Shown here one piece after another: positions 1 to 63,344 of a stretch of DNA of 64,000 nt. Every line of letters begins with the position of its first letter. The first letter of the stretch is position 1. A program made the position numbers and the translations under genes. Origin of the DNA: Kondoa subrosea (taxonomy: Eukaryota). The notes below the pieces were generated by a model. The model was given only the letters and a program-made list of their open reading frames with translations. It was not told where the DNA came from and made no database searches. The stretch lies in contig BCIN01000002.1 in the NCBI GenBank assembly GCA_039545335.1, forward strand, positions 310,001 through 374,000. Direction: 5' to 3'.

Positions 1-3000
1 TCAGCTGTGCGGCTCCGCAAAAGAGCTAGTTACGTACTGCATTTGAGCTCGCTCTCGGTACTGACATTTGCAGTGAGAGCTATTATCGGTATACATCCTG
101 CGCACGGATCAGCTCTGCCCAGGAAAGTAAATCCACGTAGAATCTGACCTTCCAGACGGCCATCGCTTTCCATCTGACGAATGCATCTATGAAGTAGCGG
201 TCAGATACTGTACGAAATCGACCAGCTAGGATTCCAGCTTACTGTGTAGCCTCAAAGCCGTTCATAATGGGCATGTTCATGTCCATAAGAACGCAGTCTG
301 CCTTTAATTGCTCCGCCTCCAGCATATCGACTGCCTCTTTGCCGTTACTGGCTAATCTTGTGTCGTACCCAAGCTTTGACAGGATTCGGGCACCTAGGCG
401 CTGATTGATAGGATTATCTGACGTGCAGGTTAGTTACTCAAACAAGTGTGATACTTCAGTCAGCATACCCTCAACAAGAAGCACGAGCGCTTTCATTGCT
501 TTCATTTCTGCCGACGAAGTTCGGGGAGGAGTAGTTGAAGCTCGAGCGATCTGAGTCGATTCCAAGCTGCTGGGCTCTTCGTTCGCTTCCTTTTGATACT
601 CAGTCGCATCTAAAACGGCTGCTCTGCTTAAGCTGTCATATCGGAGTGTCGTGTCTTCGTCGTCTGGCTCTGTAGAAGCGAACCGTACAAGCTTAAGGCG
701 TTCTGTCTTCGTTGGAGCTGGAGACAGGTAAGGCAAAGGATTTTGCATGAGTTGCAGAGTTTTTTCGAAGAAGAAAGGCCGTTTGAGACGCAAGACATTG
801 CTGGCAGTCATAAGAGCCGGAGATACAGCGAATTGTTCCGTATCATTGTAAGGTAGGCAGATGATAGGGCGGGGAATGGTATTCCTTTTGTCTTCGACTT
901 TATCGTTCGAGAGAAGTATAGTATCGAGCACAGTAAGATTATCGTGGATCCAAGCGAAGTCCAGAAAGATGCTATAGAGACAATGTTGAGTTTGAATTAT
1001 CATCGTTCAAGTTAAGAGTGTACTCACAAATCCGCATCGGCCAAGTCTTTGCTTTGAGAACTTGTTTCGTTCCATTCGGTCACATCAAATTGATATCTTC
1101 TCCAGATTGCTGCCATCTTTGTCTTCACTTCTGGACTACCAGAGCAAATATGTAGCGTAACTTCCGATTTCGGTGTGATATCGTGACCTTCGCTAGTAGT
1201 TCTGCCAGACTGTTGCAGGCGCGCCAGCTGCTTTGAGGTAGGCAGCTTCATAGCGAGATTTATGGAGTCTTTGACTACTTGAGGAGCATCTTCTGCTATA
1301 TCTCTCGCAAAGCCCGCCGCAGGATCTTCTAAGTCTTCGGCTTGACTTGTCGCAAGAGGCAAGATTAATTGTCCATCTTGGATGACGGCATCGTCTTTGA
1401 TATCCGGGTCCTCAAACGTAACTGGCACACAAAGAGGTAGACGAATGGTAAAAGTTGTCTAGTCGCTATGTCAGATCGACAATCAACGGAAAACAATGCA
1501 ATACCTACCCCCTTGCCTTCGATGGAGTCCACATTAATGGAACCGCTCAGGCGTGTCACCAGCTGTTGTACGATGGCTAGTCCAAGACCGGTACCAGCAT
1601 GGGGGCGAGTCAAACTTTGACTAGGCAGTGTGCGTTAGAAGTCGTCGACCTCAAGGCTGGCTTGACATTGCTTACTCCGCTTGGCTAAAGGCGTTCCAAA
1701 GATTTGGTATAAACTTTCTAGGGATGCCTATACCTAATAAAGATGGCGTAAGCACGACTTGTAGGCTTTGTATTGGCTAAGAGACCAACCAGAATCGCTG
1801 ACTTCAAATTTAAGCTCTTTCCCGTCATTGACTACCTCTAATTCGATCAGAATATAGCCTTGCTGAGTGAACCTGCAGAAACTTAAGCGATATGCAGGAA
1901 AGCCACTACATCACAGGGGACTAACTTTAGCGAATTGGACGTCAGGTTCATCACTATCCGGCTGACATAGGTCTCATCTATGAAGACCGTTTCGGGTACA
2001 TTTGGAGAAACCCAGATCATGAGCAACACATAGTTGAAGTCTCGCGGCTGTTCCTCTGTCATAGCGCAAAGGGAAGAGAGCATCGTTCTCAGATTCGTAT
2101 CAGCTGGCCGTGTATCGTCCTTGTCCTGTTGTTTCTCGAGTCTGCTGTAGTCGAGCACCTGACGAGTGATCAGCTGTATGCTGCTCAGAGAATCAATTTC
2201 TGTCCTCTAGAGTAGATGTAAGGAAACCAACGTATTGACGGCCTGAAAAGCCTTGTCAGCATGACCTGCCGAGCGCATTGACGCAAGCTCACCTTCTGGA
2301 TATTGACCAAATATAGATGCTGCTCATCCGTCAGCTCGGTCCGATTCAGTAGCTCGCTGTACCCAGAGACTGTATGTAGAGGAGTGCGACTATGCGCCGG
2401 GAGTCAGGTTCCTGTGCTAGATTTGCCGGCGGGCTGACTTACATCTCATGAGAAGCAACTGAAATGAAAGATTGCTTGAGATTTGCCGCTTGTTCGGCTG
2501 CATCTTTCTGCGCAAGAACACGCCAGAGCCGCCGTTTCGTCATGACGATCTCGACTAATTTATCTCTTGAAGTAGAAGCCGTATTACTGACAACCAGGTT
2601 GGAAACCATGACAGTCAAGATTGAACAACCAATAGTGGCAGTAAGCTATACTGCATTCAATACATCACTCGTACAAGTCCGTAATACTCACAAGAGGAAC
2701 AGAGTAGGCATTAGAATAGCTTGGATTCAGTTCGGCCTTGCTAAAGTAAGTCGCTGCCGCAGCTCCAGTGTAGTGCATAGAAGCCACGCCGCTCGCAGCG
2801 GCAAATGCAAACATAAGCTGACGTGTAAGTCTTGTTTCCTGTCCATGCCTGTAAGCACAGACTCCCATAATGCCCATAATTTCGCATACCAGATCTTGTA
2901 CTGGAAGAGCAGACATGAGTTCTCCATAGCGTATATTCAGGACAGTAACCTACAAAAGCTTGAAGCGACGGTGCAGACCAAGAATGCAATTAGGTACGAA

Positions 3001-4085
3001 GCAGCAACCAACCATAAATTCCAGCGAATGAATCCTTCTTGCACATGCATGGCCAACATCCCCGTATAATGCATTGCGCAAATGGCGAGTGCCCAAACTG
3101 CGCTTCTGACCACAACAACAGGATTTGTGAGATTGGCAATCATGTTGAAATATAGCGCAACGAAGAAATTTCGACCACCTTTTCTTCGCTTGATAGCGTG
3201 CTTCGCAGCTTTCGACAATCCGAGACCGCCGAGAGAAAGGGAGTTGCCAGATGTACCGCTCTCTGAACCGTTTCCAGTTTCGGTAAAGGATTGATCATCT
3301 GTTGATATAGTCGACATCGTGCCGGATGTTGCAGATGTTCCAGAGTTCGTGCGCTCGGAAGCAGGTGTATTCAATCCTGAGCTGACAGCTGAATTCTGAG
3401 AGGAAATCTTGTGTACGGCAAACGCCGGTCTAGCTTGTCCTGAGGAGGATGTATTGTCAGAAGCGCTGTTTGACCGGGATGCGGAATATTGCTCCGCAGG
3501 ATCAGCAAAGTCCCTGGTGTGCACGCTATGATCCACTTCATATTGCTGCTCTTCGTCGCCAGACACCTCCTGAATATCTTCTATGTAATCGGCATCTTCT
3601 TGCTCAGTTTCCCAAGGATCAATTGGCCTGGACAGCAACCCTTGTTCCTCTTCTTGACCTGGAGCATCTCTCTTTTGATCTTCAGCCCTATCTTCCCCTC
3701 GCTTCAATTTCCTTGCCTTTCTGTTGTACTTGCGAGCGGTACTTCGTTTGCGTCTGTAGTATTTTAGAGCCGTATCCCCTGCTAGAGCGAAGAAGGTGAA
3801 GATCACAGCGATAAAAGCACTGAGTGTCGTCAGGAGAGGGTTCAGGGTGATTGCGACGGGAAAGCGCTGGCTGATGATAGCAACAAAGTGGAGCGACCAT
3901 ATCGAGCACAGTCCAAATGTTAAGCTAGCTAGCATGATCCATCTCAGCTTAGTGCTGTAGCGCACAGAGTACTGGGATTGAGCCAGAATCTGAGAAGTGG
4001 AGACTGCGCCCAAGAAACTTGTACTCCAAGCCAAAGCGACCAAGAGCAAGTTGAAGTGAGCATCTAGCTTGACATAGTCGGCCAT
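1..4085 (-). CDS. MHYT-domain hybrid sensor histidine kinase (MHYT x3 - HisKA - HATPase_c - receiver); multi-exon, 3' end runs off window
   Basis: N-terminal hydrophobic helices with WSLHFVA, AMHYTGM and SMHYTG motifs. H-box SFISVASHEI/RTPLH (~2380-2470), N-box IVMNLTSNSLK, G2-box GTGLGLAIV, and receiver DNPINQRL...VLMDMNMPIMNGFEAT...IIALTAN (~60-420). Canonical GT-AG introns lie between them. Confidence 0.92.
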
Positions 4086-4911: not shown

Positions 4912-7195
4912 ATGCCTTTCCTCTCTCGCAAGAAGGCTGTTCCAGCTGCACCTACAAGTCCTGTGAGGCCAGCTCCGCCTACTGGTACACTTGACATATC
5001 TACCATTTCATTGCCAACCTCCGCTTCCGGCACTTTCAATGGACAAACCAAACCTGTTCAACCTTACAATAATGCGACCCCGGCGTCTTATGGGACTTAT
5101 CGAGCAGAAGCGCAGCAAGCTATTCATCAGCCGCAACCACAATACTCCTCTTACTCCTCCCAAAATGCCGTTTACCCTAGACCTGCTAGTCAACCTCAAA
5201 GCCAGCAGAACGGTCACCAGGATGTGTACATGAGCAATTCGCATGAAGCCCAGATGCCAAGGCATGTTGATCAACACTACCAGCATGCATCATCTTCGCA
5301 AGCTCCCTCTCAACTATACTCTAATCAGAATGAAAGACATCAATATCCTTCGCACATACAGCAAAGCTTCATGCCTGGCCCTTCAGCTCCTGTTCAGCGA
5401 CCCACAACAGGAGATTCGCAGCGGTCAGCTCATAAACATCGGACTGCGCCTGCTCCTATAAATCCGCCGGCCCATCAATCAAGTTACGCTACCCATCGAA
5501 GCAGATCGTCTTCAGCCGAATCGGACGCAGCGATGTCAGATAATGTGCTCTACAATGAAGAGAACGAGCGATCGTCTTCTGGCGCAACTACAATGTCTTC
5601 GGCGAACAGCTCAAAATATGGATCTGGCAATGGCGAAATGCAACATCAGCAGCAGCAGCAGCAGCAACACTCGGCCTATCAGCATCAAGATTATGCTGTC
5701 CCGATGGAAGATGATTCAAACACCTATCACGGACTTCCAGTCAACGAGTCGGTACACAAATCAGCTTACGGAGCTCATCCTTCTTCTTCCGATCGCTCTC
5801 ACACCTCTTCCGTTAGCACTGTTCAACCTCATCTTGTATCTCGGGTTGCGGCTCCGATAGAAGCTTCGAAACCTATTTCAACTGCTATGGCTCCAGCTTA
5901 CTCAAGCTCGACTAATACCTTTTCTTCACCTTCTCTTTCTACTACATCAAGCAAACGAAAAACCGCATCTCGGTATGCTTTAGGCGATTTCAACTTTATT
6001 CGAACTCTCGGCACAGGTTCTTTTGGTCGAGTCCACTTGGTTCGATCTTGTCATAATACTCGCTTCTATGCTGTGAAAGTCTTGAGCAAAGAAAGAGTGG
6101 TGAAGATGAAGCAGGTCGAACACACGAATTCAGAAAGAGAAATGTTGGAACGAGTGAGACATCCGTTCTTGGTCAATCTTTGGGGCACATTCAAAGATGC
6201 AAGGAATTTGTACATGGTCATGGATTATGTTAGCGGTGGTGAATTGTTCAGTCTTTTGCGAAAGTCACAAGTAAGTCGTCCTATTTTCTTACCGCGGGAT
6301 CGACGTTGACTTTGTTTGGACCCAGCGATTCCCTGATCCTGTAGCCAAATTTTTCGCTGCGGAAGTTGCTCTGGCGCTGGATTATCTACACTCTCTCGAT
6401 ATCATCTACCGCGATCTTAAACCAGAAAACATCCTTCTTGCTGCAGATGGTCATATCAAAGTCACCGATTTTGGTTTCGCAAAATACGTACCTGACATCA
6501 CATGGACGCTCTGTGGTACTCCAGATTACCTCGCACCTGAAATTGTGCAATCCCGAGGTTATAACAAGAGCGTGGATTGGTATGCTTTGGGTGTTTTGAT
6601 GTTTGAAATGTTGGCAGGCTATCCGCCTTTCTTCACTGAAGGTCGGTTCTTATGACCTTGTGTGCACGCCTTTGTCCATTCTTGATGATTAGATACGAAT
6701 CCAATGCGGTTGTACGAAAAGATTATCGCTGGAAAAATCCGCTACCCCGCCTATTTCACTATAGAAGCAAAAGACCTACTCAAGAATCTCCTCACTTCTG
6801 ATCTCACGAAGCGTTTCGGCAATTTGGCCAATGGCTCAAGAGATATATTCGCCCACTCTTGGTTGTGAGCATCGAATTTTACGTGAACCTGAACTACTCT
6901 GAATACTTGATTATAGTGGCGAAGTCGATTGGGAACGTCTATATCGCAAAGAAATTCCGGCGCCCTATGTTCCGCGAGTGGAAGGTGATGGAGATTCATC
7001 ATGGTATGTGAAGATGCCTTGTTGGTCATTCGTCGGCTCATTTCCCTTCTCTTTTAGCTTCGAAAGCTACCCGGAAATTGATATTGCAAACGAATACGGT
7101 CAACCTGGACCTGGTGAGTGAGATTTCACGATAACTGATTCTAGGCTAAATATCATCCATTAGATCCTCACGCTCATCTGTTCTCATTGTTCTGA
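4912..7195 (+). CDS. PKA1: cAMP-dependent protein kinase catalytic subunit (AGC/PKA) with long low-complexity N-terminus
   Basis: [61 protein letters not shown]; ends in the FxxF* motif (FSLF*). Confidence 0.95.
5648..5668 (+). repeat. (CAG)n polyglutamine tract in the PKA N-terminus
   Basis: cagcagcagcagcagcagcaa read directly. Confidence 0.8.
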
Positions 7196-7467
7196 ATGAG
7201 TGTCTATTACCTTTCATTTAATTCAGTTCGGTTTAATTGGCATCAACCTGTATTACTCTTCAGTTAAGAACTCCGATAAAATCGCATCGTATTCTCTTTG
7301 CATTCCCACTTTGTATATAGCTGGATCAGTAATGTCATTGTCTGGAATAGATCTTCTGTGTTCTCCAACCGAACACTTCATGACTGTTTTGATCACTGAT
7401 ATTATTCAGTCGTGTCACAAACCTCGAAAACAGCCGAAGATAAGAGCAGGACTGTAGCAAGTCGAGG

Positions 7468-10400
7468 ATGGACGACTGGCGAGTGAAACAGCGAGAGGCA
7501 GATGTCAGCACTGAAGGTCTTCGAAGTGACTCCAGCGCTGAACATGGAAACAGGCAGCAGCAGCAAAAGGTGATCGCAAGGAGCAGCTTGGTCAATACGA
7601 TCGAGCCTTTCAAAGCTACATTCAAGCAGCGCGACTGTACCTCGAAGTACTCAAGATCGCTCCTCAGCAGGAAATCAACAAAGAGCATGTCAAAGCTTCC
7701 TCTGCTCGCGTACTGCAGCGAGCTGAAAGGCTGAAGACGCTTCGCAAAGAGCTCCGATATGTAGAAGAAGACTTGTTGTCCCCAGGTAAGCTGATGTTGT
7801 TCTTATGCTGAAGCTGGGTGCTGAAGCATTCCAAGACCGTCAGAGCGAAGTTCTGTCTCTCTCGTCCAATTTCAACGGAGTACGAATACCTCCGTACAGA
7901 GAGCAATCTCTACCTACAGAGCTTGCTGAGACTTTGCTCTACAGGTAAGTTTCATTCGCTTCGTTTTGTTAATGCCTACTGATTCTCCTTTAGCGACCCG
8001 GCAGGCTTACTGCGACTGTCGAGTTCGCAACAAGAGCATCACGGAAGCTGGAAGCGATTAAAGCATCTTACTGCTTCTCTGTCAAGCGGAAAATCACTGC
8101 GAGGCGAAGATCTCTTTCAAGGCCAAATATCCAATTGCTCTGTTGTCGCTAGCCTGGCAGTATGCGTTGAGCATAATCACCGCTTTGGTGGTAGTGTGAG
8201 CTGCGAGCCCTCTTTATGGCGTGTCTAATTTGCCAGCAGTTAGCAAGATCTTGCTTATCAACTCTTACGAATGCCACAACGCCTGCAAATAACGGTTTCT
8301 ATGTAGTTGTCTTTCATTTCAATGGCTGTCGTCGGACCATCAGTCAGTAATGCATAACTCAATTCGAAGTAATAATCTCATCTAAACCCCAAGCTATCGA
8401 TGATCTGCTTCCGATATCGCATGAAGGCAATCTACAGACGGTTAGATGTAGAGATGGTACTACCTGGCCAGCGCTGGTCGAAAAAGCAGTCAGTACTGAT
8501 TTGTATCTATCAGTTGTCGCCTGATTACGTGCACGATTGCAGTATTTCAAGCTTAGATCGGGTTACCATGTCGGTGGCTCGTGAGTGCTCCAATAGCTAT
8601 TCAATATATATTTACTGATGAGAGCTGCAGCAACTCTAATTTAGACCTACAGTAAGCCTTGCATATAAAAGGACTCGTGAATGTTTTAACCAGCGCTTTG
8701 TAGTCTCCTCACTGGCTGGCTACCGGAAGAGCTTTCATTACATGAGTGCGATGAACTTTTGGTCCTCGCGAATAAGAGAATCTGATTCATGAAATTCAGG
8801 GGTGTCTTCCACCGCGAAAAGACATGGGATCGCCTCTATTCAGGCTACGTAGCTGGTATAATTGGCCATCTGATTTCGGACTTGAGTTGATAGTGGAGCA
8901 GGACAGTGTTTGCTGACCGCTGGCACCAAAGCGACATCAAATGCCTTCATGCAAGATAACGGTCTAATAGCGAAGCATGCTTATGCTGTTCTCGGTGTGT
9001 CTACTTGTGTTTTCTCTACACATACTCTGATACGCTTTGGAGACATGCGAATACATGAAGGCTATCGAGAAGTCTTGCTTTACAATCCTTGGCCTACCGA
9101 TACGACCGAGGTAGGAAAAGACGCTTTCTATGTTCAGTGGGAAGTTCTTTGTCTGCAATTTGATACCATCTATGTCAATTGGGACCCTGCAATGTTCTCG
9201 GAACCGCCTGTAGCTGTTCACTTGTAGGCTCAGTCACTCTCAATGTTCGTCGTCAGACTGACCGCGATGCTTAGCTCTTTGCAAGGAGGCGAGTTCCACC
9301 AGGACTTCTAGACTTTCAGGTTCTGTATATTGAGTCTCTGTTTCACAGGTTCCAGCATACCGCTACAACTGCAACTGGGGCCGACAGCAAGTCTCGACGC
9401 GGAACAAGAAATCTGGTTGCTTGCCTGTAAACATATGTCAAAAGCAGAAAAGGACGAATGGTTCTCGCTAGCCGCATCTTCCGATGGCGGGATCTCTGAT
9501 CCAGCAATATCAAGGGCTGTTCAATCTTCAGTAGGTTGTCAATCTTATTCTGGATCTCCTCGCTGATATCATCATTAGGCTTCGTACAGTGATAGTCCAG
9601 TGAGGCTGGTGAGCCGCGTTTGGGTTTTTATTGGACAGTTCCTAATGAAAACTAAAGACTCGTATTGTTGCCACAAGACCACAAGCTCGATACAACCTTA
9701 CGGCTTCTCATAAAGGTCTTCGCGACAGAGTCAACGCTACTGTCATCGCTTATGCTAATGTCCCGCTCAAGATCACAAGCGTTGTCTCGAAATACCCGAT
9801 CGTTAAAGATGTATGTCTTGTATTTTCGAAGTCCATCTGCGCTTACATGCGGTAGGTCGAGGGTACTTGGATAGGAAGCTCTGCTGGAGGCAATCATGAA
9901 CAACCTAGCTTCTATCAAAACCCGCAATACCTCCTGACTATAGAGGAAGGGAAATCCCATCAAACTGCGGAGCTCTCTCTAAAGCTCGAGACATCACGCG
10001 AGACTGCTGTTCATCTAGCTCTCATACGAGGATCCTCACGTGTATCGAGGTAGAGTCTACCTTACGTCTATGTCTGTTGTACTCATTCCTGTTTTTAGCC
10101 TGGATCGGAAAACCTTAGTTGCTAGTTCAGCTTCTTACAATCATGGTATTACGTCGTGCCAGGCGAATGCGTTATCGCGTGAGTCCCTTTGCGTCTCTGA
10201 AAGACTTCCAATCTGATTATGCAGCCGGTCAATACATCGTGGTCTGTTCAACATTTGCTCCCAGGACAGAAGACACTTTCAAACTTTCGGTTGCCTCCTC
10301 TCTGTCCTTCAATATCGTGCCTGTTCCAGCTGAAGGCGCTGGTATGTTCTCGCAAAGGGTTGATGCGGAGCTGTATGTTCCGGTTCAGGCTTAGGTTTAC

Positions 10401-10864
10401 CAGATCCAGGCTTACATTGGATGATTCACAGCTCTCGGGCTCGACCGTTACGATTAAAGCTGGAAAGCACTCAAGCAATGTCGATTATGTTAGCTTCTTT
10501 GTTTATGTACTCGATCCTTCACTAATACACGTATTACAGGGCGCGCTTACAATACAGGGCTTCTGCTGTCCGTCCAAAGACTAGTTTGACACTTTTCAGA
10601 TGTTCAGACCAGTCGAACGAGAGCAATGTTCTAGCCACTAGCGGACCGCCTGCTGATTCGGTTTGTGGTATCATCCTCCCGCTGTGTCGAGTCAGTGCAA
10701 GCGCAACAGGTGAGCTCATGCAGATAGCTCGAATGTCAGGCTGACACAGAGTCGAATTAGGCTTTGTCTTGGAAGCAATTACGCAAGATTCAATGAAGCC
10801 CCAATTTCGTGAAGTACGCTTGATCGTGTATTCTGATTGCAAATTGAAACTACACATAACTTGA
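7468..10864 (+). CDS. RIM13: Calpain-like cysteine protease PalB/Rim13 (MIT-like N-terminus, catalytic domain, calpain III domains); many small exons
   Basis: MIT-like exon AFQSYIQAARLYL...VLQRAERLK; catalytic Cys QGQISNCSVVASL, His GLIAKHAYAV, Asn LYNPW; YVNWDP; YIVVCSTF and VPAEGAGMF are typical of PalB. Confidence 0.88.
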
Positions 10865-10944
10865 ACAATTGCAAAATAAGATAATTATAACCTAATGTCC
10901 TCACGAAACACAATGCATGACTGATAACCAAAATCTCATCGGTT

Positions 10945-48165: not shown

Positions 48166-48253
48166 CCGACTGCTCTATATGAGATTCCCAATATTCAATC
48201 AAAGCATCCGGCTATCATACAATACAGCTTTACTTCTACTTCTACTTCTTCTT

Positions 48254-50353: not shown

Positions 50354-50694
50354 AGTGGAAAGGATCTCAATCGAGAGTCAAGTGGTATCGTCTAGTCTCA
50401 ATCATAGCTCGAGGTTTTAGTACAAAGTCGAACGTCACGCGTCAAATGGCTATGAGGTGAATGTAGGCTCGTACGCATTTGTCTGTGCTATATTACATAT
50501 CCTCTATCTTCTCGAGAGAGGAGAAAGACTCGTCATAGTACTATATTGATGCTTGCTAAGCAAAGGTCAGCTCACCATTCTGCTGCGGAAGATTTGAGCA
50601 GACTTACTTGGCAAACGGGCCACGTATACTTCCGCTGCAGACTTTACAGCACTTCGACTGCATACAAGACTTTTCACTTCTTCTTATCGATCTT

Positions 50695-52223: not shown

Positions 52224-52349
52224 GTATGACAGGCAGACGTAAAAGCACTAAAGTGAATGAAATTAATTAATTATGTACATGCAAATACTACAGTAGAATC
52301 TACAGAGAGTATAGAAATGTCCATATAACACATATTAAGATTGATGCCT

Positions 52350-55210
52350 TCACTCCTCAAACCCAGAATCCCGGTCACTATCGGTTTTGCGACTCAAATG
52401 TCTCAAGCTCCTTAAACACAACTCTTTGCAATCCCTCAAAGGTAGCTCTTCTTTGTCTTGAGCCTTGACTTGCCAAACTGGATCGCTGAGCAAAAACTTG
52501 GTAGATGAAACCATTTCTTCCAAATTAGCTTGTTGAGCAGAGTTGAGATCTCTTCGGCTGAGATCTCTTCTAGCGACCAACCACCTCAAGCACACTGTAG
52601 CAACCAAGTCTACACCGTTGAGAGGTTCTTGGTTCAATGAGATTGCTTCATATGCCGTTGGGTTGAGTAATCGAACGAAAGCATGAGCTGAAGCCAAATG
52701 AGAAGCTGGACCAGGTTTAGCCAAAATAGATTGCAAGATCATGCAGATGCTTCGAGCTCCTGTATGATCGTGCGTACCAATACAGAGGAAACCTCGAGTG
52801 ATGAGCGCTAGAGTATGCGAAGGTGAAACAGTGACAGTAGAATCGACAATGGACTTGATTTGATTCAGCATTTGATTTGGTTCAATGTGGAAAGCCAAAG
52901 ATTGATCTGAGTCTTCATCATTGCTTGCCAGGGGTGGACAAAGTGATTTGACTGTTTTTCGGAACAAGTCGAACCACATGGAAGTAAGAGCAGCGTGTAC
53001 TCTCTCTTCCGCCACTCGGAGAAGAGGAAGAGAATCACTAGCCGAGCAGATTCGATAAGAAGGTCGGAAAGCCACTGCACAAGCTGTGTCGTAATTTGAA
53101 GCAAGAGCTGCTTGAGCCCATCCTTCTATCGTTCCGTCAGTCGCTTTCTTCGGTGCAGCGGCTGCGATATTCCAAAAGCGCCGTCTTCGGGAGTAAGGAG
53201 ATGCTTGAGCTGAAAAGACTGAAACGAAAGAAAGAGCCAAAGTCGCATCCACATGGGGTCTTGACATTGTGACTGGCTTTACAGCGAACAGTTCGTCGGA
53301 CCAATAACGCGATTTGACTAGATTATGAAGTCGCATAATAGTGTAGAGCCGACCGACGCGGTAGCATATCGAGTTGCCTGGAAATAGCGCAATTAGTATA
53401 TATGGAGATGAAGTAGTAGCGAAAAACTCACCGAAAGCGCTCTCGACTTCAATTAATCGGACCAATGAAACCACCCTTTCTCTCAACTCTTTTCCTTTCA
53501 GCGAGTTGAAGACCATTGGTCTCAAACCCATCCAAATCAAATAGCTACTCAACCCTTCAACAATCAAGCCCATCAAAGTACCAAGCAATCCAAATCTAGG
53601 AGCATCGCTTAAAACCAACAATGCTTTACGTAATCTTCTGGCATGGTTGATTTGAGTTTCTCGATCTGGTGATTGACTGACAGCTGATTCAGACTCGTGC
53701 AAAGTCTTGAAAGCCATTTGTCTTTTTCCATCAATGATGGGTGAATGACTCGAGGATTCTTCAGAAGAAAACTTGTTGCTGAGATAATGGAAGAGGTTGT
53801 AGAAGATAATGCACCCAGCTATAGAAATCGATAAATAAAGAAGGATGTGGGAAGAAGAAGGTGTGTTTGAAGGTAAAGAAGGTTTAGGGATTGAAGCTTT
53901 CTTGACTAAATTGATTGATTTTGCCCAAGCCTGACTGGTTCCATTTTTGAATGTCGATGCCGTGTCAGGAGAAGAAGCTGCGAAACCAGTTCCAGCTAAT
54001 CCAACCCCAGCGAAAACACCATAGAGCGATCTTCGCGAGCTTCCAGATCCATCAGATGCCGGCGAACCAGAGCTAGAACCGTTGTCTGAGGATGAAGTGA
54101 GAGCGAGTTCATGTTCATAAGCAGCTTGAGCATGAGGTAATTGCCTCAGAATCCGTTCAGCCACTTCGATCCGACTTTGTAAAGCTTCACGTTCTTTCTT
54201 CAAATGTCGGATATAGTCGATACCTTTATCGATGATTATACCTTTGCTAAGCTTGTTTGGAACGACAACACCATCCCTTTTAGATCCAACTGGGAAAGCG
54301 ACTTGAGGCGTTGCGGAAGGTACGATGAAAGCTGATGCCCTTCGAGGTGGCCCAGAAGCACCATCACTCTCTTTCAGATGATCGAGGGCAGGAATAAGAT
54401 GTTGCAGTTGAGTAAGAGAAGAGTTGATCTTGGTGCGATATCGCTTCTCAACGGCATCTTCAAGGTCGTAAGCATCCAGTACAGACAAACCCAAGGGCAG
54501 GAAGACTCACTATGACCCGTCGGACCCTCTTCGTTGACCTCCTCTTGGACTTCCTGAGCAGCATCTTCCGCCAATTTCCTTTTCTTGGCAGCCGTTTGCG
54601 AGGTAGGTTTCTTTGGTGCAGGTGTAGGCACCAAGAGTGTTGGTTCAGGAAGAGGTACGAATGCTCGATTCTTATCTTCTGCCTTTGCCTTCTTGGGCAG
54701 AGGTTTTTGAAGAACCGAAGGAGCTTGACCTGTATAAGGTAATTGTGAAGTAGTCGAGTAGGGAGAAAGACCAGATGCTGCCATGACTGCTCCATGTGAG
54801 TGAGAAATGGAGTGCCTTGGAATTGGATGGGCTTGCGTTGTTGACATTCCAGGATAATTGAAATCGGCGGCATTCAAGCCAAATGTGGGATCCAAACCAA
54901 ATTGCGGTGTACCCTCATAGCCAGCATTGAAGTTGAAGTCTACATTGGTAGCAACATGACCAGTGTACATAGTCTCAGTTGCAGGAGCCATCGAAGTTAT
55001 TTGCACCGGTGGGAATGTAGGTGATGTCAGGAATGCAGGAATGCCCAAGTCATCAAACGATGCAGAGAGGTAGCTCTGATCACTGGCGCATCCTAAGCTT
55101 GTGTCAGGACTCAGTGAACTGGCAGAAGGTGGCCCAGATTTCTGAAAGAATTGAGAATAGAACGATTGAAAGTCTTGGTCATCTTGTTGCACTGCCAGGA
55201 AGCCGTCCAT
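52350..55210 (-). CDS. SRE1: SREBP-type membrane-anchored bHLH-Zip transcription factor
   Basis: Spliced basic region GHNAVEKRYRTKIN carries the SREBP-specific Tyr; helix 2 LSKGIIIDKGIDYIRHL; two hydrophobic segments (LYGVFAGVGLAG; ILLYLSISIAGCIIFYNLF); long C-terminal regulatory domain. Confidence 0.8.
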
Positions 55211-55406
55211 GGCTACAGGCTATCTTGTGTTTGGAATCTCCTGGGCTGCAGTTGTAGGACTTTCAGAGCAGATTTCAATGATTGTTGCAAAATAAGCCGC
55301 GACTCCCAAATCAGACCATTTCGGCGAACTCTGAAGATCGCCGTTTCTTAAGTGCGGAGCCGTCGGAGGAGAATTCTCACTAAGGGGTTACAACAGGCTA
55401 TAGCTA

Positions 55407-57108
55407 CTACATTGATGCAGGCATATCGCACACCGTCAGAGCTTCCGAAAGAAGAGAAGTCTGATACAATTTGCCCTTATACAAAATCGCATTGGTTGAT
55501 ATCTTCGCTAGACCTCTGCCAGGATCTGTGAAGATTGTACGAAGTCTGTACCTGCGCACAAGAGTCAGAATAGACAGCATATGTCCACATCAAGACAAGA
55601 CTCACTTGTGTCCATAGAACGCTTGTTCGCTTGTATTGTTTTGTATGCTGAAGACTGTAGCTGGTAAGACTGCATTGATCCGATCACTTGCAACTTCAGC
55701 ATTCAGTGCTCGTCCAAAGTCGCCGAGCCTGTCAAATTAATTAAGCATGCTGCAACCCAATGCCATCAAGAGTCTAACCTAGGCAAGCCCGCTCTGTCAT
55801 TTAACGGTGAGAAGATACTGTCATACAGAATTGATGAACCTTACACTATCACAGCGCCAGATTCAGTAACATGAATGTTATCAACCGGCATGAGCATCTT
55901 GATCTGATCGAGTTCGATGAATGTGAAATCCGCTTGTTTTTCCAGCACATGAACAATGCCTCTGTAGGTTTCGGCGACATAGTACACATCCCCAGGACCC
56001 TATTTCGATGACTCAGTAAGACTGTTTATGACATCTTTTGCAAGACTCACTTTCGCAATACCATTCGGATGTTTCAAGCCCTCGTAGACTTGCTTACATC
56101 CTTGTTTCACATCGCAATGTACTATATCGGAAGATGACATTCCCAAGTATAGAGCGTTCCTTCTTCGAAGGCCAGTCTTGGTAGCATGATCGTTTGTAAC
56201 GTAAAAAGAAGTAGCAGAAGTAGCAGCGATATTGTTTGGAGCTCTAATATATTCATCCCTGCGTGAATCATGTCAATGATCAATAATCAATTTGCGGCTA
56301 CAAGAGCTGTCATACCTCATTGTTCGCACATATCGCAACTCGGTCATTCCTGAACTCCAATTGCCTTCATATACTTCAATAACGCTATCTGCGCCTTCTC
56401 TTGTCGCAGCGTCCAAATCGCCATCAATTGCAGCTTGAGGCGGTTTATGATTGATGAGGAAAACAGTTGCCAATCCATCTTCAAGCCAGACGTCTAACCC
56501 GTGTGTTAAGAACAAGCCAACTTGAGCATCCGCAGGTCGACCGGTGAGTTGGAGTCGACGGACAGAATCGGTTTTGGTATCGTAAAGGGCTACGTAGCTG
56601 TTTGTAGCTGCATCATCTGACCAAGGTCTAGGTATGCCTGAAAGATCAAGGTTGTGTCTGCAGTTCAGAAGTATGAGAAGATTGTTCAGAATCATTGTTT
56701 AGCAGTGCGAACATACGTTGGAGTGAACCAGAAACGCTTGATAGCAGGATCAGTACATGCAAGCAGTGAAAGCCCAGTCGCGTGGCTATAACGAAGCTTT
56801 AGATCCAGCGAGTGTACAGGAGATTCAGACGTACTCTAAGTACTGATCTTCGCAGCCTGAGAGCAGATCCTTCAGCCTCATAAGTGCGTAAATGTGCAAA
56901 GACTGCTCACCTCGCAATTCCGGGATGGCTGTACAATGTTGGTTATTCTTTGAACCCACACGATAACCTAAGCCTAGAAAAGAGATCCTGTGCGAGATTA
57001 GCCTAACTCAATATGCATGACTATTTAGACCTACTGGGGTAATACGTGGGTAAACCAACCACCAGCAAGTCCTGCTGCAAGTAGGACCAAGATCGACCAG
57101 CTCAGCAT
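55407..57108 (-). CDS. Paraoxonase/arylesterase-like six-bladed beta-propeller hydrolase with N-terminal signal anchor
   Basis: MLSWSILVLLAAGLAG; CED motif; THGLDVW, VFLINH, SVIEVY, APNNIAA, FYVTNDH, HPNGI, MPVDNI. Confidence 0.88.
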
Positions 57109-57290
57109 ATAGTGTGGTGCTCCTGCAGTCTGCTGTTTGCTAGGCTGCTTCTGCGTTCGCTTCGAATTGCTCTCTTGTAGCAGACTTGTCTTCTCTGTTG
57201 CCGTATCCATTTCTGTCTTTTGGAAGCCTGTCTGTTCACTATCTCTTCCTCTATATTCCTCACGTCTGCGAATTTCACTGTGTTTGGTTT

Positions 57291-58330
57291 ATGAGCAAGT
57301 ATGTAATAATTTCCGTCAGACTGGCATTTTAGATGTCGATTCATTATTATTCTTCACGATAGTTTTCCTTCATGGCTCTCTATCAAGCCTCTCGAAACAA
57401 CTGCTGGAATTCAAGTCGAACAGGATATTGAGACGTATGGAATCGCTGGACGGTAAGTGTTGTCTCTGTCTGTTTTTGCTGTAAGCTAAATGATCACAGC
57501 ACATGGGAAGCTTCTATACATTTCGTAAACTATGTACAAGCATCAGCAGAAGCAATTGCGAAGAACATCAAATGTTTGTATACCCCCATTTTTCCTCTGT
57601 CCCAAAGACACAAAACCAGCTTCACAATCTTGGATCTGGGCAGTGGAACAGCTTTTGCGGCTCTCAACCTCTCCAGACACCTTCATAGTAGCGATACTAT
57701 AATCCTTACCGATCTGCAAGAAGTTACAAGCCTGCTGCAATCGAACGTCAACAAGCTTCTCACAACTAGTCAATCAAGTCCTAAAATCCTCGTTCGGTCT
57801 CTTGATTGGTTCAAAGCGGAAGAAAGAAGTCGCATTGAGCATGAATTTCCACGATTGGACGCAATAATGGCGTACGATTGAAACCCTGTTTCAATGATGA
57901 TTCCGCTCACAATTTCTGCTTTAGTTGCGATCTGTTCTACTTCAGAGAACTATATGGACCTCTATTACGAACTTTCTTGGCGTTAGCTACTGATCCTTAT
58001 ATGCCCGTAAGCTCAATTCCAATTCTTTCCGGTATTCCAGCTCATAACATTCGTAAGATCATACTAGCTTATTGTGTAAGAGATTTAGCTAAAGAACAAC
58101 CTTTCTGGAATGCCTTTGGTTATTGGTTCTCTTACGAGCAAGTCCAAACACCCCTCGAAAAGGATCAACAAAACGTCTTTCTTTTCATCGCTTATCGGAA
58201 AGCATCTAGACTTGCGGAAAGTGTACCGGAACATGACGAGATGTTGATCTATGGCAAAGCTTCAGAAACGTTTGAAAGCCTTCTCCTTTCGAGGATCAGT
58301 GTGGATGAGGATGATGAAGAGATCAAATGA
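57291..58330 (+). CDS. Class I SAM-dependent protein methyltransferase (Methyltransf_16/METTL21-like)
   Basis: MSNFPSWLSIKP...YGIAGRTWEAS, ILDLGSGT, ILTDLQEV, RSLDW, CDLFYF, KEQPFW. Confidence 0.88.
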
Positions 58331-58777
58331 AGTTATGAGCACCATGAACGAGTGGTACAGTTTCCAAGGGAAGAATCTCTTTAGGAACGTGCTGTAAGTG
58401 AACTATACGTTAATAGACTTCTCAATAACTGATTAACTCAAAATTAACTCAAATAGATGACACTGCTGCCTGAAACATCTCGTCGAGGCGAATGTACGAA
58501 GAGAGCTGGAATGTGTAGCACCTCAGATATAATTCTTGTAATTGCAGGGCACCTCAAGGCCAAAGACAATTGAATTAAATCGCGGGACTGCTCTTGCTCA
58601 CCTCGATGGAATCAAGGAACTGATCAGCGGTGTGATGTAGAAAGGAGAGAAAGGCTGGGCAGGACAAGGGCTGTACTAAAGAAAGAGACAGCAAGAAGGC
58701 TCAAGAGACTGTATACACAATTGCATTATCTTTCGGCTGTTGCTCGATCATAGGTGTCTGATGCTGTAACAGTGTCA

Positions 58778-60203
58778 TCATCTGCTACCCATTCGCACTA
58801 TTCCAGCCTGTTGTAACTTTTGAATATTGGCTCCTGCAAAAATAGAACACTCATTAGCCATACGTATAGCAAAAGCATAGCGTCGTCATTTACTAAAGGT
58901 AGGATTCTTCATGTGTTCCATCAATGCAGCAGGATCATCTTGAGCTTGTTGCAGAATAGCTTGCATGGATGGATCTTGCATGATTTTCTGTTTTACCCCA
59001 AACATCATCAGTCTTTTACCTCATCGAGTGAAGAAAAGTGAGTGACTCACAGCAATAGCAGGATCTCTCATTGCTCTCTGTACACGTTCTTCATCTGTTT
59101 CGTTTGAATCTTGAGTGTACATAGCTTCCATAATCTTTCTCTCTTGATTCACAATCTCAGTCTTGTTCTTACCATCTACATCTGCAGTTTTCGCTTCCAT
59201 CAAAGCATCAGAAGCTTGAGAGTATTCCTTCATCGCAAACTTGACGTGAGATTTTCGAATGTACGCTTTGACTGTGAGATGGAAATCGACGCAATCAACA
59301 TCTGAAGCTGATTTGTATCGAAAATCCACGCACCGAATTTAGGATCAATCTTGATTGCAGATTCAGCGTCTTTTAATGCTTCGTTCAGCGCAAGGAGTTT
59401 GGTATAAGCTGTTGCTCGATTGTTGTAAGCTTTCGGATCCTCTGGATTGCGCTTGATGGCTTCTGAATAGTGTTTGACCGAACCCGCAAAATCACCAGCC
59501 TGTGCATTGTCCGGCCTTAGGTATTCGCAAGGCGAAAACTCAGAGCTCGAGAACACACCTTGAAGCAAACATTGCCTTCTTCTCGCGCTTTATCACTCAA
59601 GGCAGGATCAATGTAAGCTTTCCTATCTGCTTCGCTTTTAGCTTTCTCGGTCTGCAAGCGGAGTCCTCAATTACGGTCTCAGAAGTGAATGACCATGCAA
59701 CTTACGTCTTTCAGCTTTTGCAGGATATCAGGCGTTCGATGTTCTGTGAGAGACTTGTTGACTGTAGGTAGACGTAGAAGAGATGTTAGCGTCACATGGT
59801 GCGGCAAGGGGCCAGACAACCTACAGAACTTGATTGCATTGTCATAATCTTCTTTCTTCAAGTAAGCTGTCCCTATCCTTCCAAAAGACCTACAGACAAG
59901 AGCAGGCCGAGTAAGAAGAGGAATGCTATAACCCAACGGCACAATGTAAAGGCCGCACTTTGCTATAGTTTTGTAATCTGCTCGAGTATCTCTGGCATCA
60001 TCCACAGCTTTCTGAGCTGTCTCTATGGATTCATCCAGTTGACCATTCTCATACTGGGCTGCTGCCAAGTTGTTGAGGTAGACCACATCTTTGTCGAGCT
60101 CGTATGCAGCTTTGAAGTGATCTATCGCTTGATCGAATCGTCGCGCTTTGTAGGCTTCATTGCCTTTCGCCTTGCGTGTTTGAGCTTCTTCTTTGCCTGA
60201 CAT
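58778..60203 (-). CDS. STI1: Hsp70/Hsp90 co-chaperone STI1/HOP, short form (TPR2A-TPR2B-DP2)
   Basis: KAKGNEAYKARRFDQA, YLNNLAAA, RADYKTIAK, KSLTEHRTPDIL, AYIDP, YSEAIKRNPED, RAMRDP, IMQDPSMQAILQQAQDDPAAL. Confidence 0.92.
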
Positions 60204-60632: not shown

Positions 60633-63344
60633 ATGAAGATCCTCTTTCTTACTACAGCGCACAACTCTCTGAGTCAAAGATTGGCTCTCCTACTCACATC
60701 ACAACCTCACAACCACTCCGTCACGGTCGAACTAGCACTCAATGAAGCATGTATGCTTGAAGCTGTTCAATTAGCGAAACCAGATGTCATCTTATGCCCT
60801 TTCTTGACGCGTCGAGTACCTAAAGAAATTTATGAGAACAACATTTGTTTGATTGTGCATCGTAAGTCAATCCAAAGTGATTCCATAATGATCATTGAAG
60901 CTGAATTCTTACACTTGGACACAGCCGGTCCACCTGGAGATTCTGGTCCTTCTTCTCTGGATTGGTTCTTGTTAGGCGATGATGGAGCTCAAGCAGACCC
61001 AACTCTAGCTCTTACAGCAATCATCGCAAGTCCAACTTCTTCACTCCCTCCAATCAGGTATTGGGGAGTTACAGTCTTACAAGCAGAAGAAGAATTGGAT
61101 GCTGGACCAGTTTACGCTTTCTCCCAATTCACCGTTCAAAATGGGATTGCTAAATCGGATTTATATCGATCTCAAGTTACTTATGCTGCTCAACATGCTG
61201 TTTTGGCTGCTTTGGAATTGGTTCAAGCGAAACAATCACCAAAGGAAGAGAATAGACTGTACAGCGTTCCAGATGGCAGAAAATGGTTGGGTTGTCAAAC
61301 TAGGGAACGACCTTTACTAAAAGCATCTCAGAGGGTCAGTAATTTCTTTCATATCATCTAAGTATGAATGAAACTGAAGTGGATGGGACTGTTATGACAG
61401 GACTTCGATCCAACTAAAGAAAATGCAGATGTTGTTTCCCGCAAATTACTGGCATCCAATTCTCAGCCTGGCGTTCTATCTCGCTGTCTCTCTTCAGTCT
61501 TACAAGACAGTCAATCTTCACTTTTCCTCTATGGTGGTCAATTAGAACCTGTTCTTCCACCATCATTCAAAGCTATTCCTGGTCAAATTATCGCTCAAAG
61601 GGATGATGCGATCTTACTCGTTTGCGCAGATGGAAAAGCAGTCTGGATCACTCACGTTAGGGAACCCAAAACTAAAGAACAAGTTCACTTGAATGTCAAA
61701 TTACCTGCTATGATTGGTTTGAAGTTCAAAGAAGGAAGGATTCCACCTGTTTGGGAATACGGGTCTTTCAGTAAAGAAGAAGAAGGATCAGGAAGGAAAG
61801 AAGTTTGGATCGAATGGGAGAAAACTACTGCTGCTAATTTGTTGAGACTGGAAGGACCTTTGGGAGATCTAAGGCCTGGCGCTTTACCTCTTGGTGAGTT
61901 TTCTTCTAATATCACATGGATATGAGGCTTCGTACTAATTTTTTGTTATGTATAGATGACTACAGCTCAACTGAACCTTGCTCGATCGCTTTCGTCCATT
62001 TCGACTTCATCAATGGTGCATCCTCGACTACTCAATCTCGCTTGCTCCTGAGTGCATTGAAGCATGTCATCGAACCTTCTTCTGCTCCTGCTGGTCATCC
62101 ACTTCGAGCTTTAGTCATGATGGGTGGAGAACAATTCTTCAGCAACGGGATTCATTTATCAGTCATTGAAGGTCATGAAGATCCAGCAGGCGAATCTTGG
62201 AGACAAATCAATGCGATTGATGATGTTTGTGAATTCCTGCTATCTATGAATTTGCCTGCGTAAGTTTCTCTTTTACTTCCCTACATAGTAGATCTCAAAC
62301 TGAATTTTACGGTACAGTCGCAATATTGTTACTGTTTCTGCTATTCGAGGTAACGCAGCGGCAGGTGGTTTCGCTCTCGCAACTTGCTGCGATATTGTCG
62401 TTACATCTGAACAAGCTACTCTCAATCCGCATTATCGCGGTGTGGGTCTTTATGGATCTGAATACCATACTTATACATGGAGAAAGCGATTGGAGAAGAC
62501 TGGGCAAGCAGATGCCAAGTTTGAAGAGATTACAAAAGGTTTATTACCGATGAGCAGCACTCAAGCTAAAATTCTTGGTTTGATCGATGAAGCGATTCCT
62601 TACTCTGGTGAAGATGCGAATCAACACATTTCCAAAATGGTCAAAATGGCTCTTTCTCGTCGTGTGGGATCTCGCAACTTTGGTTCAGTATCGCCTTGGT
62701 GTTTACCCCTCAGCCAAAGCTTACCTTCTGGCGCTCCTCTTCTTCCTGCTCTACTTCAAGGCAAACTCAAGACCTTCAGCACCCTCACTACACCTCTAGC
62801 TGAAGTCCGTCGCTTGGAGCTAGACGAGATGATGCAAGACTTCTTTCATCCTCATCGATCTCAACGGTACAATGATCGTCGAATCGCCTTCTCCCGCAAA
62901 ATCGCACCCAAAACTTCTCCGATGCGTTTCGCTTTGCATCGTCGCTTTTGTGACTGGTCGGGCGTCAAAAGAGATATCGAAGAAACACCTGAATTCGATA
63001 CTCTGGAACCTTCTGCATCTCTGGAACCATTCCCTCTCTTACCGGCTGTTCATATACGACAGATTACACCGCAGCCTATCGACATCGATGATCAAAGCGT
63101 TCCTTCACTTACTTCTTCGCCTACTTCTGTTGGATCCTTGTCTTTGGCTGAACCGAATCCACAGTACGAGCCACCCATGTCCTTGGCAGAGAGGTACCGT
63201 CGCAACAGCTCAATAATCTCTTGGGCTTGTATTGGCGAAGGAGGAAAAGAAGAAACCATTCATCAACCTCTTTTCCCTTGCTTGTATGAACAGATGGAGA
63301 AAGAAGGGGTAGAGATGACTGCTAGTCTTGAAGTATGTGTTTGA
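60633..63344 (+). CDS. hoxX: HoxX/HypX-like protein (N10-formyl-THF formyltransferase domain plus enoyl-CoA hydratase/crotonase domain); 4 introns (60862-60924, 61335-61400, 61894-61955, 62260-62317)
   Basis: MKILFLTTAHNSLSQRL, DVILCPFL, IVHPGPPGDSGPSSLDW, WGVTVLQAEEELDAGPV, DFINGASSTTQ, FFSNGIHLSVIE, ESWRQINAIDDV, GNAAAGGFALA, LNPHYRGVGLYGSEYHTY. Confidence 0.92.

What the first reader, a model, noticed from the sequence alone, without database searches (positions are those of the whole stretch)
1..63344. Candidate fungal carbon-monoxide signalling system: HoxX (CO source) plus MHYT hybrid histidine kinase (CO sensor)
Seen: a patchily distributed bacterial-type CO synthase (60633-63344) and a membrane MHYT kinase (1-4085) lie on the same contig ~56 kb apart. 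Established: MHYT is a Met/His-containing membrane domain proposed to bind copper and sense O2/CO/NO, and it occurs in CoxC/CoxH of CO-dehydrogenase clusters. Inference: the two could form a gas producer-receptor pair, a volatile quorum or developmental signal feeding the fungal phosphorelay. About 25 unrelated genes separate them, so linkage alone is weak evidence and co-occurrence across genomes is the real test.
Basis: inference. Interest (0 to 1): 0.8.

Follow-up and report, generated by a model that had tools for sequence, protein, structure and literature searches.

The report
Possible CO-maker and gas-sensor pair
This fungus has an intact copy of a bacterial carbon-monoxide-making enzyme (HypX) and an intact membrane kinase with a copper/gas-sensor (MHYT) domain; their 56-kb spacing is probably chance, but in several bacterial groups the same two gene types sit side by side, away from hydrogenase genes, which points to an undescribed CO signal that the fungus may or may not use.

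Summary
Both genes are real and intact. HoxX/HypX (60633-63344, 5 exons, 820 aa) keeps all five catalytic residues, and no [NiFe]-hydrogenase or HypD was found in the genome. The MHYT hybrid kinase (start 4085, 17 exons, 1134 aa, ending just outside the window) keeps three MHYT histidines, the H-box and the receiver. Their linkage is not supported. Housekeeping genes separate them. In 3 of 3 other fungi where I saw both, they are on different contigs. A second, more canonical MHYT gene lies on another contig, and neither fungal family nests among the bacterial linked pairs. In bacteria, hypX lies next to MHYT genes in four arrangements, two phyla and three places on the tree, never beside hyp genes (10 of 80 and 7 of 77 loci). 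In one family, 33 of 36 hypX genes have a stand-alone MHYT gene directly upstream, independent of hypD. One arrangement is hypX plus an MHYT histidine kinase. I found no paper on this pairing. The scan noted fungal HypX before, but not with MHYT. Best reading: HypX-made CO, read by Cu-MHYT, reports formyl-folate status; fungal coupling about 1 in 3.

The parts
60633..63344 (+). HoxX/HypX-like gene, 5 exons (60633-60861, 60925-61334, 61401-61893, 61956-62259, 62318-63344), 820 aa: N10-formyl-THF transferase domain fused to a crotonase-fold domain, plus a ~110-aa tail
   Evidence: single copy in the genome
60633..61334 (+). formyltransferase N-terminal part with H76, D82, D135 (= Aquifex His74, Asp80, Asp109) and the CoA-contact residues Q15 and R158
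62318..63008 (+). crotonase-fold decarbonylase part with Y518 and E527 (= Aquifex Tyr416, Glu426); end coordinate approximate
1..4085 (-). MHYT hybrid histidine kinase gene, 17 exons in all (15 inside the window, two of them 11-nt micro-exons at 2890-2900 and 2232-2242), 1134 aa; ends about 150 nt beyond the window start
   Evidence: locus L006
3882..3893 (-). MHYT motif 1, LHFV (His kept; Met replaced by Leu, as in 115 of 120 fungal relatives)
3063..3074 (-). MHYT motif 2, MHYT; it follows a ~200-aa low-complexity insertion between TM3 and TM4
2767..2778 (-). MHYT motif 3, MHYT
2448..2450 (-). phospho-acceptor His496 of the H-box (SHEIRTPL)
38..500 (-). receiver domain exons (EDN, Asp1060, Thr); the conserved Lys lies in an exon outside the window
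4912..60203 (.). intervening genes, none with an evident CO, copper or folate role: PKA-like kinase, spartin/senescence, DUF7082, proline dehydrogenase, Glu/Gln-tRNA ligase, Chs7, DUF5427, protein kinase, bZIP, TRAPPC13, SUZ, DHH/DHHA2, HLH, Methyltransf_16, TPR (Sti1-like)

Best explanation
This is not a gene cluster. It is two intact members of old fungal families that probably share a chromosome arm by chance, and whose types form an undescribed producer-sensor module in bacteria. Steps: (1) HypX moves the formyl group of N10-formyl-THF to bound CoA and decarbonylates it to CO. This is shown for bacterial HypX and inferred for the fungal and the MHYT-linked bacterial enzymes from intact active sites. 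(2) No hydrogenase takes the CO. None was found in this fungus, nor hypD in 31 of 36 hypX genomes of one bacterial family. (3) CO binds the Cu site of an MHYT protein in competition with O2. This is shown for CoxC and inferred here. (4) The MHYT protein passes the signal to a kinase or chemosensory relay, so the cell reads its own formyl-folate pool or its CO/O2 ratio. This is inferred from gene neighbourhoods. I put the bacterial module at about 0.7. In the fungus, I put HoxX making CO at about 0.75, an MHYT protein (this kinase or the one on contig C3) reading that CO at about 0.35, and this kinase in particular at about 0.25.
For: Active sites are intact: 5 of 5 residues in the window protein, 118 of 120 fungal homologues and 15 of 15 MHYT-linked bacterial HypX aligned. 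A model of a fungal homologue matches HypX at TM 0.90. Neither HypD nor a NiFe large subunit was found in this genome. Bacterial pairing: 10 of 80 GTDB hypX loci carry MHYT and 44 carry hyp/hydrogenase genes, with no overlap; 7 of 77 against 30 in metagenome loci, no overlap. Family of G001: 35 of 36 hypX genomes have a stand-alone MHYT, 33 directly upstream, against 3 of 105 genomes without hypX; hypD 5 of 36 against 18 of 105. Family of G003: 16 genomes have an MHYT gene 0.9-1.2 kb behind hypX; in the loci annotated it is hypX-REC-like-MHYT/PAS/HK. Actinobacterial family of G594: 8 of 8 hypX genomes have MHYT (background 26 of 141), adjacent in 4. MHYT-linked HypX needs three changes in the bootstrap trees (5-95% range 3-3). 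One-carbon context: an ACT-V4R + MHYT pair lies between a formyl-THF deformylase-like gene and gcvP. CoxC needs Cu to sense CO, and O2 reverses it (PMC11347149). Against linkage in fungi: different contigs in 3 of 3 fungi; housekeeping genes in between.
Against: No biochemical data for any hydrogenase-free HypX or its MHYT neighbour. The Fisher tests ignore relatedness: the 33 adjacent pairs may be one inherited block, so the independent events may be only about three. Many hydrogenase-free hypX loci have no MHYT neighbour: 26 of 80 loci had neither. In the family of G003, 38 of 54 hypX genomes showed no such adjacent gene. The stand-alone MHYT has no output domain and its M-H motifs are predicted at the outer membrane face, so signalling by it is assumed. 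Fungal HoxX and fungal MHYT kinases each form their own clade, not nested among the linked bacterial genes. Only 2 named genera are shared between the two truncated fungal hit lists (26 and 37 genera). MHYT kinases were reported absent from nine fungal proteomes that include F. graminearum, N. crassa and U. maydis (PMC4007546); whether those species have HoxX I did not see. The 1% closeness in this genome is left to chance.
Confidence: 0.55

Rival explanations
1. One reading: the fungal HoxX and this MHYT kinase are a dedicated, linked CO producer-receptor pair that feeds the phosphorelay as a volatile quorum or developmental signal.
For: Both genes are intact. A prior chance of about 1% for this spacing. 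Bacteria have hypX in an apparent operon with an MHYT histidine kinase. Three other fungi have both genes. The three His residues are kept in 118 of 120 fungal MHYT kinases.
Against: Different contigs in 3 of 3 other fungi. At least 15 unrelated genes in between. A second MHYT gene and a haem-oxygenase-like gene offer another receptor and another CO source. No shared descent from a bacterial cassette. Nothing speaks for action between cells.
Confidence: 0.2
2. The two fungal genes are functionally unrelated. HoxX is a folate-cycle valve (it frees THF from formyl-THF and loses the carbon as CO or formate) or makes CO for another metal centre, and the kinase senses O2, NO, copper or haem-derived CO. 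The bacterial pairing would not extend to fungi.
For: Separate, old fungal clades: MHYT kinases also occur in chytrids, and HoxX spans Dikarya. The named hit lists barely overlap. MHYT domains of NbdA and MucR are tied to NO (PMC11347149). A haem-oxygenase-like hit exists in the genome. Motif 1 lost its Met in 117 of 120 fungal kinases.
Against: CO made in the cytosol diffuses freely, so an MHYT Cu site in the same cell would meet it. In bacteria the two families have come together at least three times. This rival overlaps the best explanation on the fungal side; it differs in denying any coupling.
Confidence: 0.45
3. In the bacterial cassettes the CO is a ligand or a hazard, not a message. 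HypX supplies CO to complete a metal site in the MHYT protein (maturase role kept, new client), or MHYT and the fused hemerythrin are sinks that buffer CO or O2 for the enzyme.
For: The commonest partner is a ~250-aa MHYT with no output domain. Three of 3 long Methylococcaceae HypX tested carry a C-terminal hemerythrin. The only known role of HypX is to deliver CO to a metal (PMC12134894).
Against: One arrangement fuses MHYT to PAS and a histidine kinase and adds receivers. Another lies divergent from a chemosensory cluster. CO binding to CoxC is reversible (PMC11347149).
Confidence: 0.2

Closest known systems
HypX/HoxX of Aquifex aeolicus (PDB 6J0P, 6J1E-6J1J) and Cupriavidus necator
   Same: Fused formyltransferase and crotonase domains; His74/Asp80/Asp109 and Tyr416/Glu426 equivalents; Gln15 and Arg131 CoA contacts; fold (TM 0.90 for homologue P0001).
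   Different: No hyp or [NiFe]-hydrogenase genes found in the genome; four introns; ~820 aa with a C-terminal tail; Arg9 is Ala and Arg542 is Lys; no known client for the CO.
CoxC of Afipia carboxidovorans (MHYT-LytTR, Cu-dependent CO sensor; PMC11347149)
   Same: Seven-helix MHYT domain with three His-bearing motifs.
   Different: The output is a hybrid histidine kinase; ~200-aa disordered insertion between TM3 and TM4; motif 1 is LHFV; CoxC senses outside CO for CO oxidation, not CO that the cell makes.
Fungal MHYT hybrid histidine kinases (noted in Taphrina, PMC4007546; many database proteins)
   Same: Same architecture and clade; the window protein is an ordinary member.
   Different: No ligand or function was found in print; no link to HoxX has been proposed in the papers searched.
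Bacterial hypX-MHYT cassettes (found here: loci L043, L017, L048, L224 and others)
   Same: The same two protein types with the same key residues; one arrangement has an MHYT histidine kinase.
   Different: There the genes are 0.06-1.2 kb apart and conserved; in the fungus they are 56 kb apart, not conserved, and from separate clades.
Gas producer-receptor pairs: NO synthase with H-NOX in bacteria; haem oxygenase CO in animals (recalled, from no call)
   Same: The logic of a self-made diatomic gas read by a metal-site receptor.
   Different: Gas, source (formyl-folate) and receptor (Cu-MHYT) all differ.

Membership tests
HypX/HoxX | formyltransferase domain fused to a crotonase domain | tested here: met
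HypX/HoxX | His74-Asp80-Asp109 triad and Tyr416/Glu426 | tested here: met
   H76, D82, D135, Y518, E527
HypX/HoxX | CoA-tethering residues R9, Q15, R131, R542 | tested here: inconclusive
   Q15 and R158 kept; R9 is Ala; R542 is Lys, as in most hydrogenase-free bacterial HypX aligned
HypX/HoxX | same overall fold | tested here: met
   model of homologue P0001, not of the window protein: pLDDT 88, TM 0.90 to 6J0P
HypX/HoxX as hydrogenase maturase | HypCD scaffold and [NiFe]-hydrogenase in the same organism | tested here: not met
   PF01924 and PF00374 not found in G000
HypX/HoxX | releases CO from N10-formyl-THF | not testable with these tools
   needs an enzyme assay
MHYT gas sensor (CoxC type) | seven membrane helices with three His-bearing motifs | tested here: met
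   motifs at 65, 338, 402; seven helices in the model of the Mixia orthologue; a crude hydropathy scan of the window protein called six
MHYT gas sensor (CoxC type) | Met in all three motifs | tested here: not met
   motif 1 is LHFV, Leu in 115 of 120 relatives; the second MHYT gene on C3 has all three Met
MHYT gas sensor (CoxC type) | binds Cu and responds to CO | not testable with these tools
   shown only for CoxC (PMC11347149)
MHYT gas sensor (CoxC type) | CO-dehydrogenase (cox) genes as regulated target | not tested
   I did not search G000 for cox genes
fungal hybrid histidine kinase | H-box His, N and G boxes, receiver Asp and Lys | tested here: met
   His496, NSLKF, DSGIG, GTGLG, Asp1060, KP
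functional gene cluster | tight linkage kept in other genomes | tested here: not met
   different contigs in 3 of 3 fungi with both genes; no shared contig length among 46 and 61 contigs of 57 kb or more; no MHYT hit in 9 fungal-type HoxX metagenome loci, only 2 of them over 10 kb
bacterial hypX-MHYT cassette (this work) | genes adjacent | tested here: not met
   56,548 nt between the starts
bacterial hypX-MHYT cassette (this work) | descent from the linked bacterial clades | tested here: inconclusive
   each fungal family is its own clade; no bacterial sister is resolved
co-evolving producer-receptor pair in fungi | matched presence and absence across fungal genomes | not testable with these tools
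   no fungal genome collection; hit lists cut at 120 rows

The most novel reading that the evidence does not exclude
HypX plus MHYT is a widespread, hydrogenase-independent gas-messenger system. An enzyme turns formyl-folate into CO on purpose and a copper membrane receptor reads it. Bacteria wire it to chemosensory and two-component relays, and fungi have rebuilt or kept the same circuit with HoxX and an MHYT hybrid kinase or the second MHYT protein. That would give fungi a haem-independent CO signal for one-carbon or oxygen status.
Probability: 0.3. Interest if true: 0.92.

Novelty: new variant of a known kind. Interest (0 to 1): 0.7.

Why it matters
In the papers I could read, HypX is known only as the CO source for hydrogenase assembly, and an MHYT domain has been shown to sense CO only as outside fuel (CoxC). 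A recurring hypX-MHYT cassette without hydrogenase would give HypX a second job and give the many orphan MHYT proteins a self-made ligand. It would be a CO counterpart of NO synthase-receptor pairs and a direct read-out of the formyl-folate pool. It also gives the first concrete, testable client for the conserved, catalytically intact HoxX of fungi. The bacterial cassettes occur in cultured, named strains, so the idea can be tested at once.

Tried and rejected
Fungal phylogenetic profile: not possible, since there is no fungal genome set and the hit lists are cut. A search with residues 1-112 of the kinase found nothing. Expression: no RNA holder was listed for the HoxX gene, so no reads were laid and the splice models rest on GT-AG rules, open frames and homology. 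Complex prediction of the bacterial HypX with its MHYT neighbour: no answer (score 0.00). A fold search of the kinase model returned only kinase cores among the listed matches, no MHYT structure. Co-transfer of both genes from one bacterial operon: rejected as unsupported; the full IQ-TREE run on 95 rows did not finish, so FastTree on 100 rows and IQ-TREE on 47 rows were used. Contamination or recent transfer of HoxX: rejected, because it has spliceosomal introns, typical GC content and sits in a Basidiomycota subclade. Pseudogene: rejected for both genes. Five of 80 GTDB loci gave HypX frames under 450 aa and were left out of the tree. Five of the 14 order-level HypX were recovered by the motif filter. 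Paper searches for MHYT+HypX and MHYT+HoxX gave 0 hits. HoxX+fungal gave 4, none on a fungal gene by listing, one checked by passages. HypX+carbon monoxide gave 14, hydrogenase papers by title bar one unrelated. Searches were mostly noise. Actinobacterial hypX loci: 1 of 8 fetched had an MHYT neighbour. In Acaryochloris and Mycetohabitans no MHYT was found with this query.
Full report
1. What is in the window. It is a gene-dense, intron-rich fungal stretch (GC 46%), G000:C2:310001-374000 of an 18.9-Mb, 27-contig genome. The HoxX-like gene runs 60633-63344 on +. Four GT-AG introns give one 820-aa frame. Its pieces match Aquifex HypX (E 1.6e-24 and 1.7e-15). It carries H76, D82, D135, Y518 and E527, the equivalents of His74, Asp80, Asp109, Tyr416 and Glu426 named as catalytic in PMC6802093 (passages). 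All five are kept in 118 of the 120 best homologues; the other two lack the C-terminal part. A model of homologue P0001 superposes on HypX at TM 0.90. The gene is single-copy, and neither HypD nor a NiFe large subunit was found in the genome. The kinase starts at 4085 on -, has 17 exons and 1134 aa, and ends just outside the window. It has MHYT motifs LHFV, MHYT, MHYT, a ~200-aa insertion after TM3, His496, the ATP-binding boxes and a complete receiver. All three His are kept in 118 of 120 fungal relatives; motif 1 has Leu for Met in 115. The model of the Mixia orthologue shows seven helices, the last running straight into the kinase helix. The splice models are inferred, as no RNA run was listed.

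2. Is the spacing meaningful? The starts are 56,548 nt apart, a 0.6% event for two given genes and 1.2% given two MHYT genes. But the pair was chosen after the fact, and 15 Pfam-labelled genes without an evident CO, copper or folate role lie between. Three named fungi showed both genes: Tothia fuscella (contigs of 283 and 176 kb), Xylariales sp. PMI_506 (2.38 and 0.96 Mb) and Cronartium quercuum G11 (164 and 411 kb). In each the contigs differ; this is read from contig lengths, and genes near contig ends could still be close. None of 46 and 61 contig lengths of 57 kb or more is shared between the two hit lists. Nine metagenome loci with fungal-type HoxX had no MHYT hit, but only two exceed 10 kb. 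This genome has a second, non-kinase MHYT gene on contig C3 with Met-His in all three motifs and a weak haem-oxygenase hit (E 2.4e-5), so other receptors and CO sources exist. Named hits come from 26 genera for HoxX and 37 for the kinase, with 2 in common; the lists hold only 120 of 2252 and 120 of 779 hits, so this is no profile. PMC4007546 (passages and section 16) reports MHYT kinases in Taphrina but not in nine other proteomes. PMC9048145 (passages) counts 1-3 PF03707 genes in A. nidulans, N. crassa, P. grisea and three Fusarium species, and PMC3576715 (one passage) lists one in A. fumigatus. Non-kinase MHYT genes therefore seem common in filamentous fungi. Both families look old: HoxX forms one clade split into basidiomycete and ascomycete branches (100/100), and MHYT kinases also occur in chytrids. 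Neither nests among the linked bacterial genes described below.

3. Ten carry an MHYT gene, 44 carry hyp or hydrogenase genes, none carries both, and 26 have neither (Fisher p 1.5e-4). In 77 metagenome loci the counts were 7, 30 and 0; at least one of these duplicates a GTDB genome. Four arrangements occur. (A) Cellvibrionaceae: a stand-alone ~250-aa MHYT directly upstream of hypX, divergent from REC, CheW, MCP and CheA/Hpt genes (the Pil/Chp-like label is my recall of that gene order). (B) Aliikangiella and Kangiellaceae: hypX divergent from an ACT-V4R gene and MHYT; G509 has two such cassettes. (C) Methylomicrobium and Methyloglobulus: hypX, a REC-like gene, an MHYT-PAS histidine kinase, REC and a hybrid kinase, often behind a DJ-1/AraC regulator. 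(D) An actinobacterium, G594: hypX followed by MHYT.

4. Genome-wide counts. Order of G001, 251 genomes: 15 have hypX. Eleven of them have hypD and no MHYT hit; four, including the centre genome, lack hypD and all have MHYT; the MHYT background is 54 of 251. Family of G001, 141 genomes: 36 have hypX. Of these, 35 have a stand-alone MHYT, and in 33 it lies 61-741 nt upstream on the same strand. The exceptions are a contig-edge fragment and two unlinked cases. Only 3 of 105 genomes without hypX have such a gene. hypD is independent of hypX (5 of 36 against 18 of 105), and so are fused MHYT proteins (5 of 36 against 28 of 105), a useful control. Family of G003, 121 genomes: 54 have hypX, 16 have an MHYT gene 0.9-1.2 kb behind it, and these are 16 of the 21 genomes with the closest HypX subtype; hypD was not counted there, and G003 and G005 have it elsewhere. 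Family of G594, 141 genomes: 8 have hypX, all 8 have MHYT (background 26), adjacent in 4. hypD was not found in G001, G002, G509 or G594. These p-values ignore relatedness and some genomes are incomplete. The firmer statement is that MHYT-linked HypX needs three changes on the tree (bootstrap range 3-3) and occurs in four gene orders and two phyla. All 15 linked HypX aligned keep the five catalytic residues, and the 6 partners checked keep three MH motifs. Two further hints: in G185 an ACT-V4R + MHYT pair, and in G371 an MHYT gene, lies between an ACT-formyltransferase gene (purU-like, name recalled) and the glycine-cleavage P gene. And 3 of 3 long Methylococcaceae HypX tested end in a hemerythrin domain.

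5. Mechanism. Shown elsewhere: HypX makes CO from N10-formyl-THF through formyl-CoA (PMC12134894 and PMC6802093, passages; the primary papers of the Lenz group were seen only through these). The MHYT domain of CoxC senses CO, needs Cu, and is reset by O2 (PMC11347149, passages and Discussion part 1). Shown here: intact sites, absence of a hydrogenase client, and repeated hypX-MHYT adjacency in bacteria. Inferred: that this CO is read by MHYT and reports formyl-folate supply or the CO/O2 ratio to a kinase or chemosensory relay (about 0.7 in bacteria). For the fungus the parts are present, but no evidence ties them together. I put coupling of HoxX to some MHYT protein at about 0.35 and to this kinase at about 0.25. 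A cell-to-cell quorum role has no support. Rivals are given in their sections; full independence of the two fungal genes (0.45) is the strongest.

6. Known or new. Each part belongs to a known family: the enzyme passes the sequence tests for HypX and fails the hydrogenase-context test; the kinase is an ordinary member of a noted but unstudied fungal group. The pairing was not found in print: MHYT+HypX 0 papers, MHYT+HoxX 0. PMC2974642 (passages) treats HypX only as a maturation factor. The library lacks most subscription papers and I opened no supplements; homologue lists there could mention these genes. Earlier scan notes describe fungal HypX and hydrogenase-free hypX beside regulators, but none holds both HypX and MHYT; they are unchecked leads. 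The producer-receptor logic is known for NO (recalled), so I file this as a new variant of a known kind.

7. Verdict. Observation confirmed; fungal linkage not supported; underlying idea supported from an unexpected side, by conserved bacterial cassettes. Interest 0.7, carried mainly by the bacterial module and by the testable client it offers for fungal HoxX.

Noticed in passing
window 4085-4912: The MHYT kinase is head-to-head with a PKA-like catalytic subunit gene (starts 827 nt apart), so they may share a promoter region.
   Followed up: no
window 60203-60633: HoxX is head-to-head with a Sti1-like TPR gene, starts 430 nt apart.
   Followed up: no
window 2890-2900 and 2232-2242: Two 11-nt micro-exons are needed to keep the kinase in frame and aligned with its relatives; no RNA check was possible.
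   Followed up: partly
L005:2259-5567 (G000:C3, minus strand): Second MHYT gene without kinase: three intact MH motifs followed by ~700 aa with no Pfam match; a 12-nt exon carries motif 1. An equally good receptor candidate.
   Followed up: partly
L197:5862-8255, L198:6263-8704, L199:6429-8588: HypX fused to a C-terminal hemerythrin domain in Methylococcaceae (3 of 3 tested); about two dozen further hypX frames of 720-870 aa were not tested.
   Followed up: partly
L180:2758-9343 and L189:965-7852: MHYT gene (with ACT-V4R in L180) placed between a formyl-THF deformylase-like gene and gcvP; G371 has this without a hypX hit.
   Followed up: partly
L229:6001-7755 (NC_014718.1) and L069: Mycetohabitans, the endosymbiont of Rhizopus, carries a plasmid hypX of the MHYT-linked clade (57% to L043) with no hyp neighbours; no MHYT was found in G511. 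The CO might act on the fungal host (speculation).
   Followed up: partly
L010, L015, L040, L048, L061, L085: A DJ-1/AraC (FtrA/GlxA-like, below the curated cut-off) regulator lies directly upstream of hydrogenase-free hypX in methanotrophs.
   Followed up: partly
L202:3-8041: In G394 hypX follows MCP and CheA-like genes on the same strand, while its ACT-V4R + MHYT pair lies ~320 kb away.
   Followed up: no
L184-L185, L187: In three genomes of the order sample hypX is divergent from tryptophan 2,3-dioxygenase, a haem enzyme whose pathway releases formate (pathway recalled).
   Followed up: no
protein P0147, residues 769-882 (window 469-1458): The model shows a second, degenerate receiver-like alpha/beta domain between the ATPase and the true receiver; the best fold match is the hybrid kinase ShkA.
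   Followed up: no
G000:C1:3444059-3444244: Weak haem-oxygenase hit (E 2.4e-5), a second possible CO source in this fungus.
   Followed up: no
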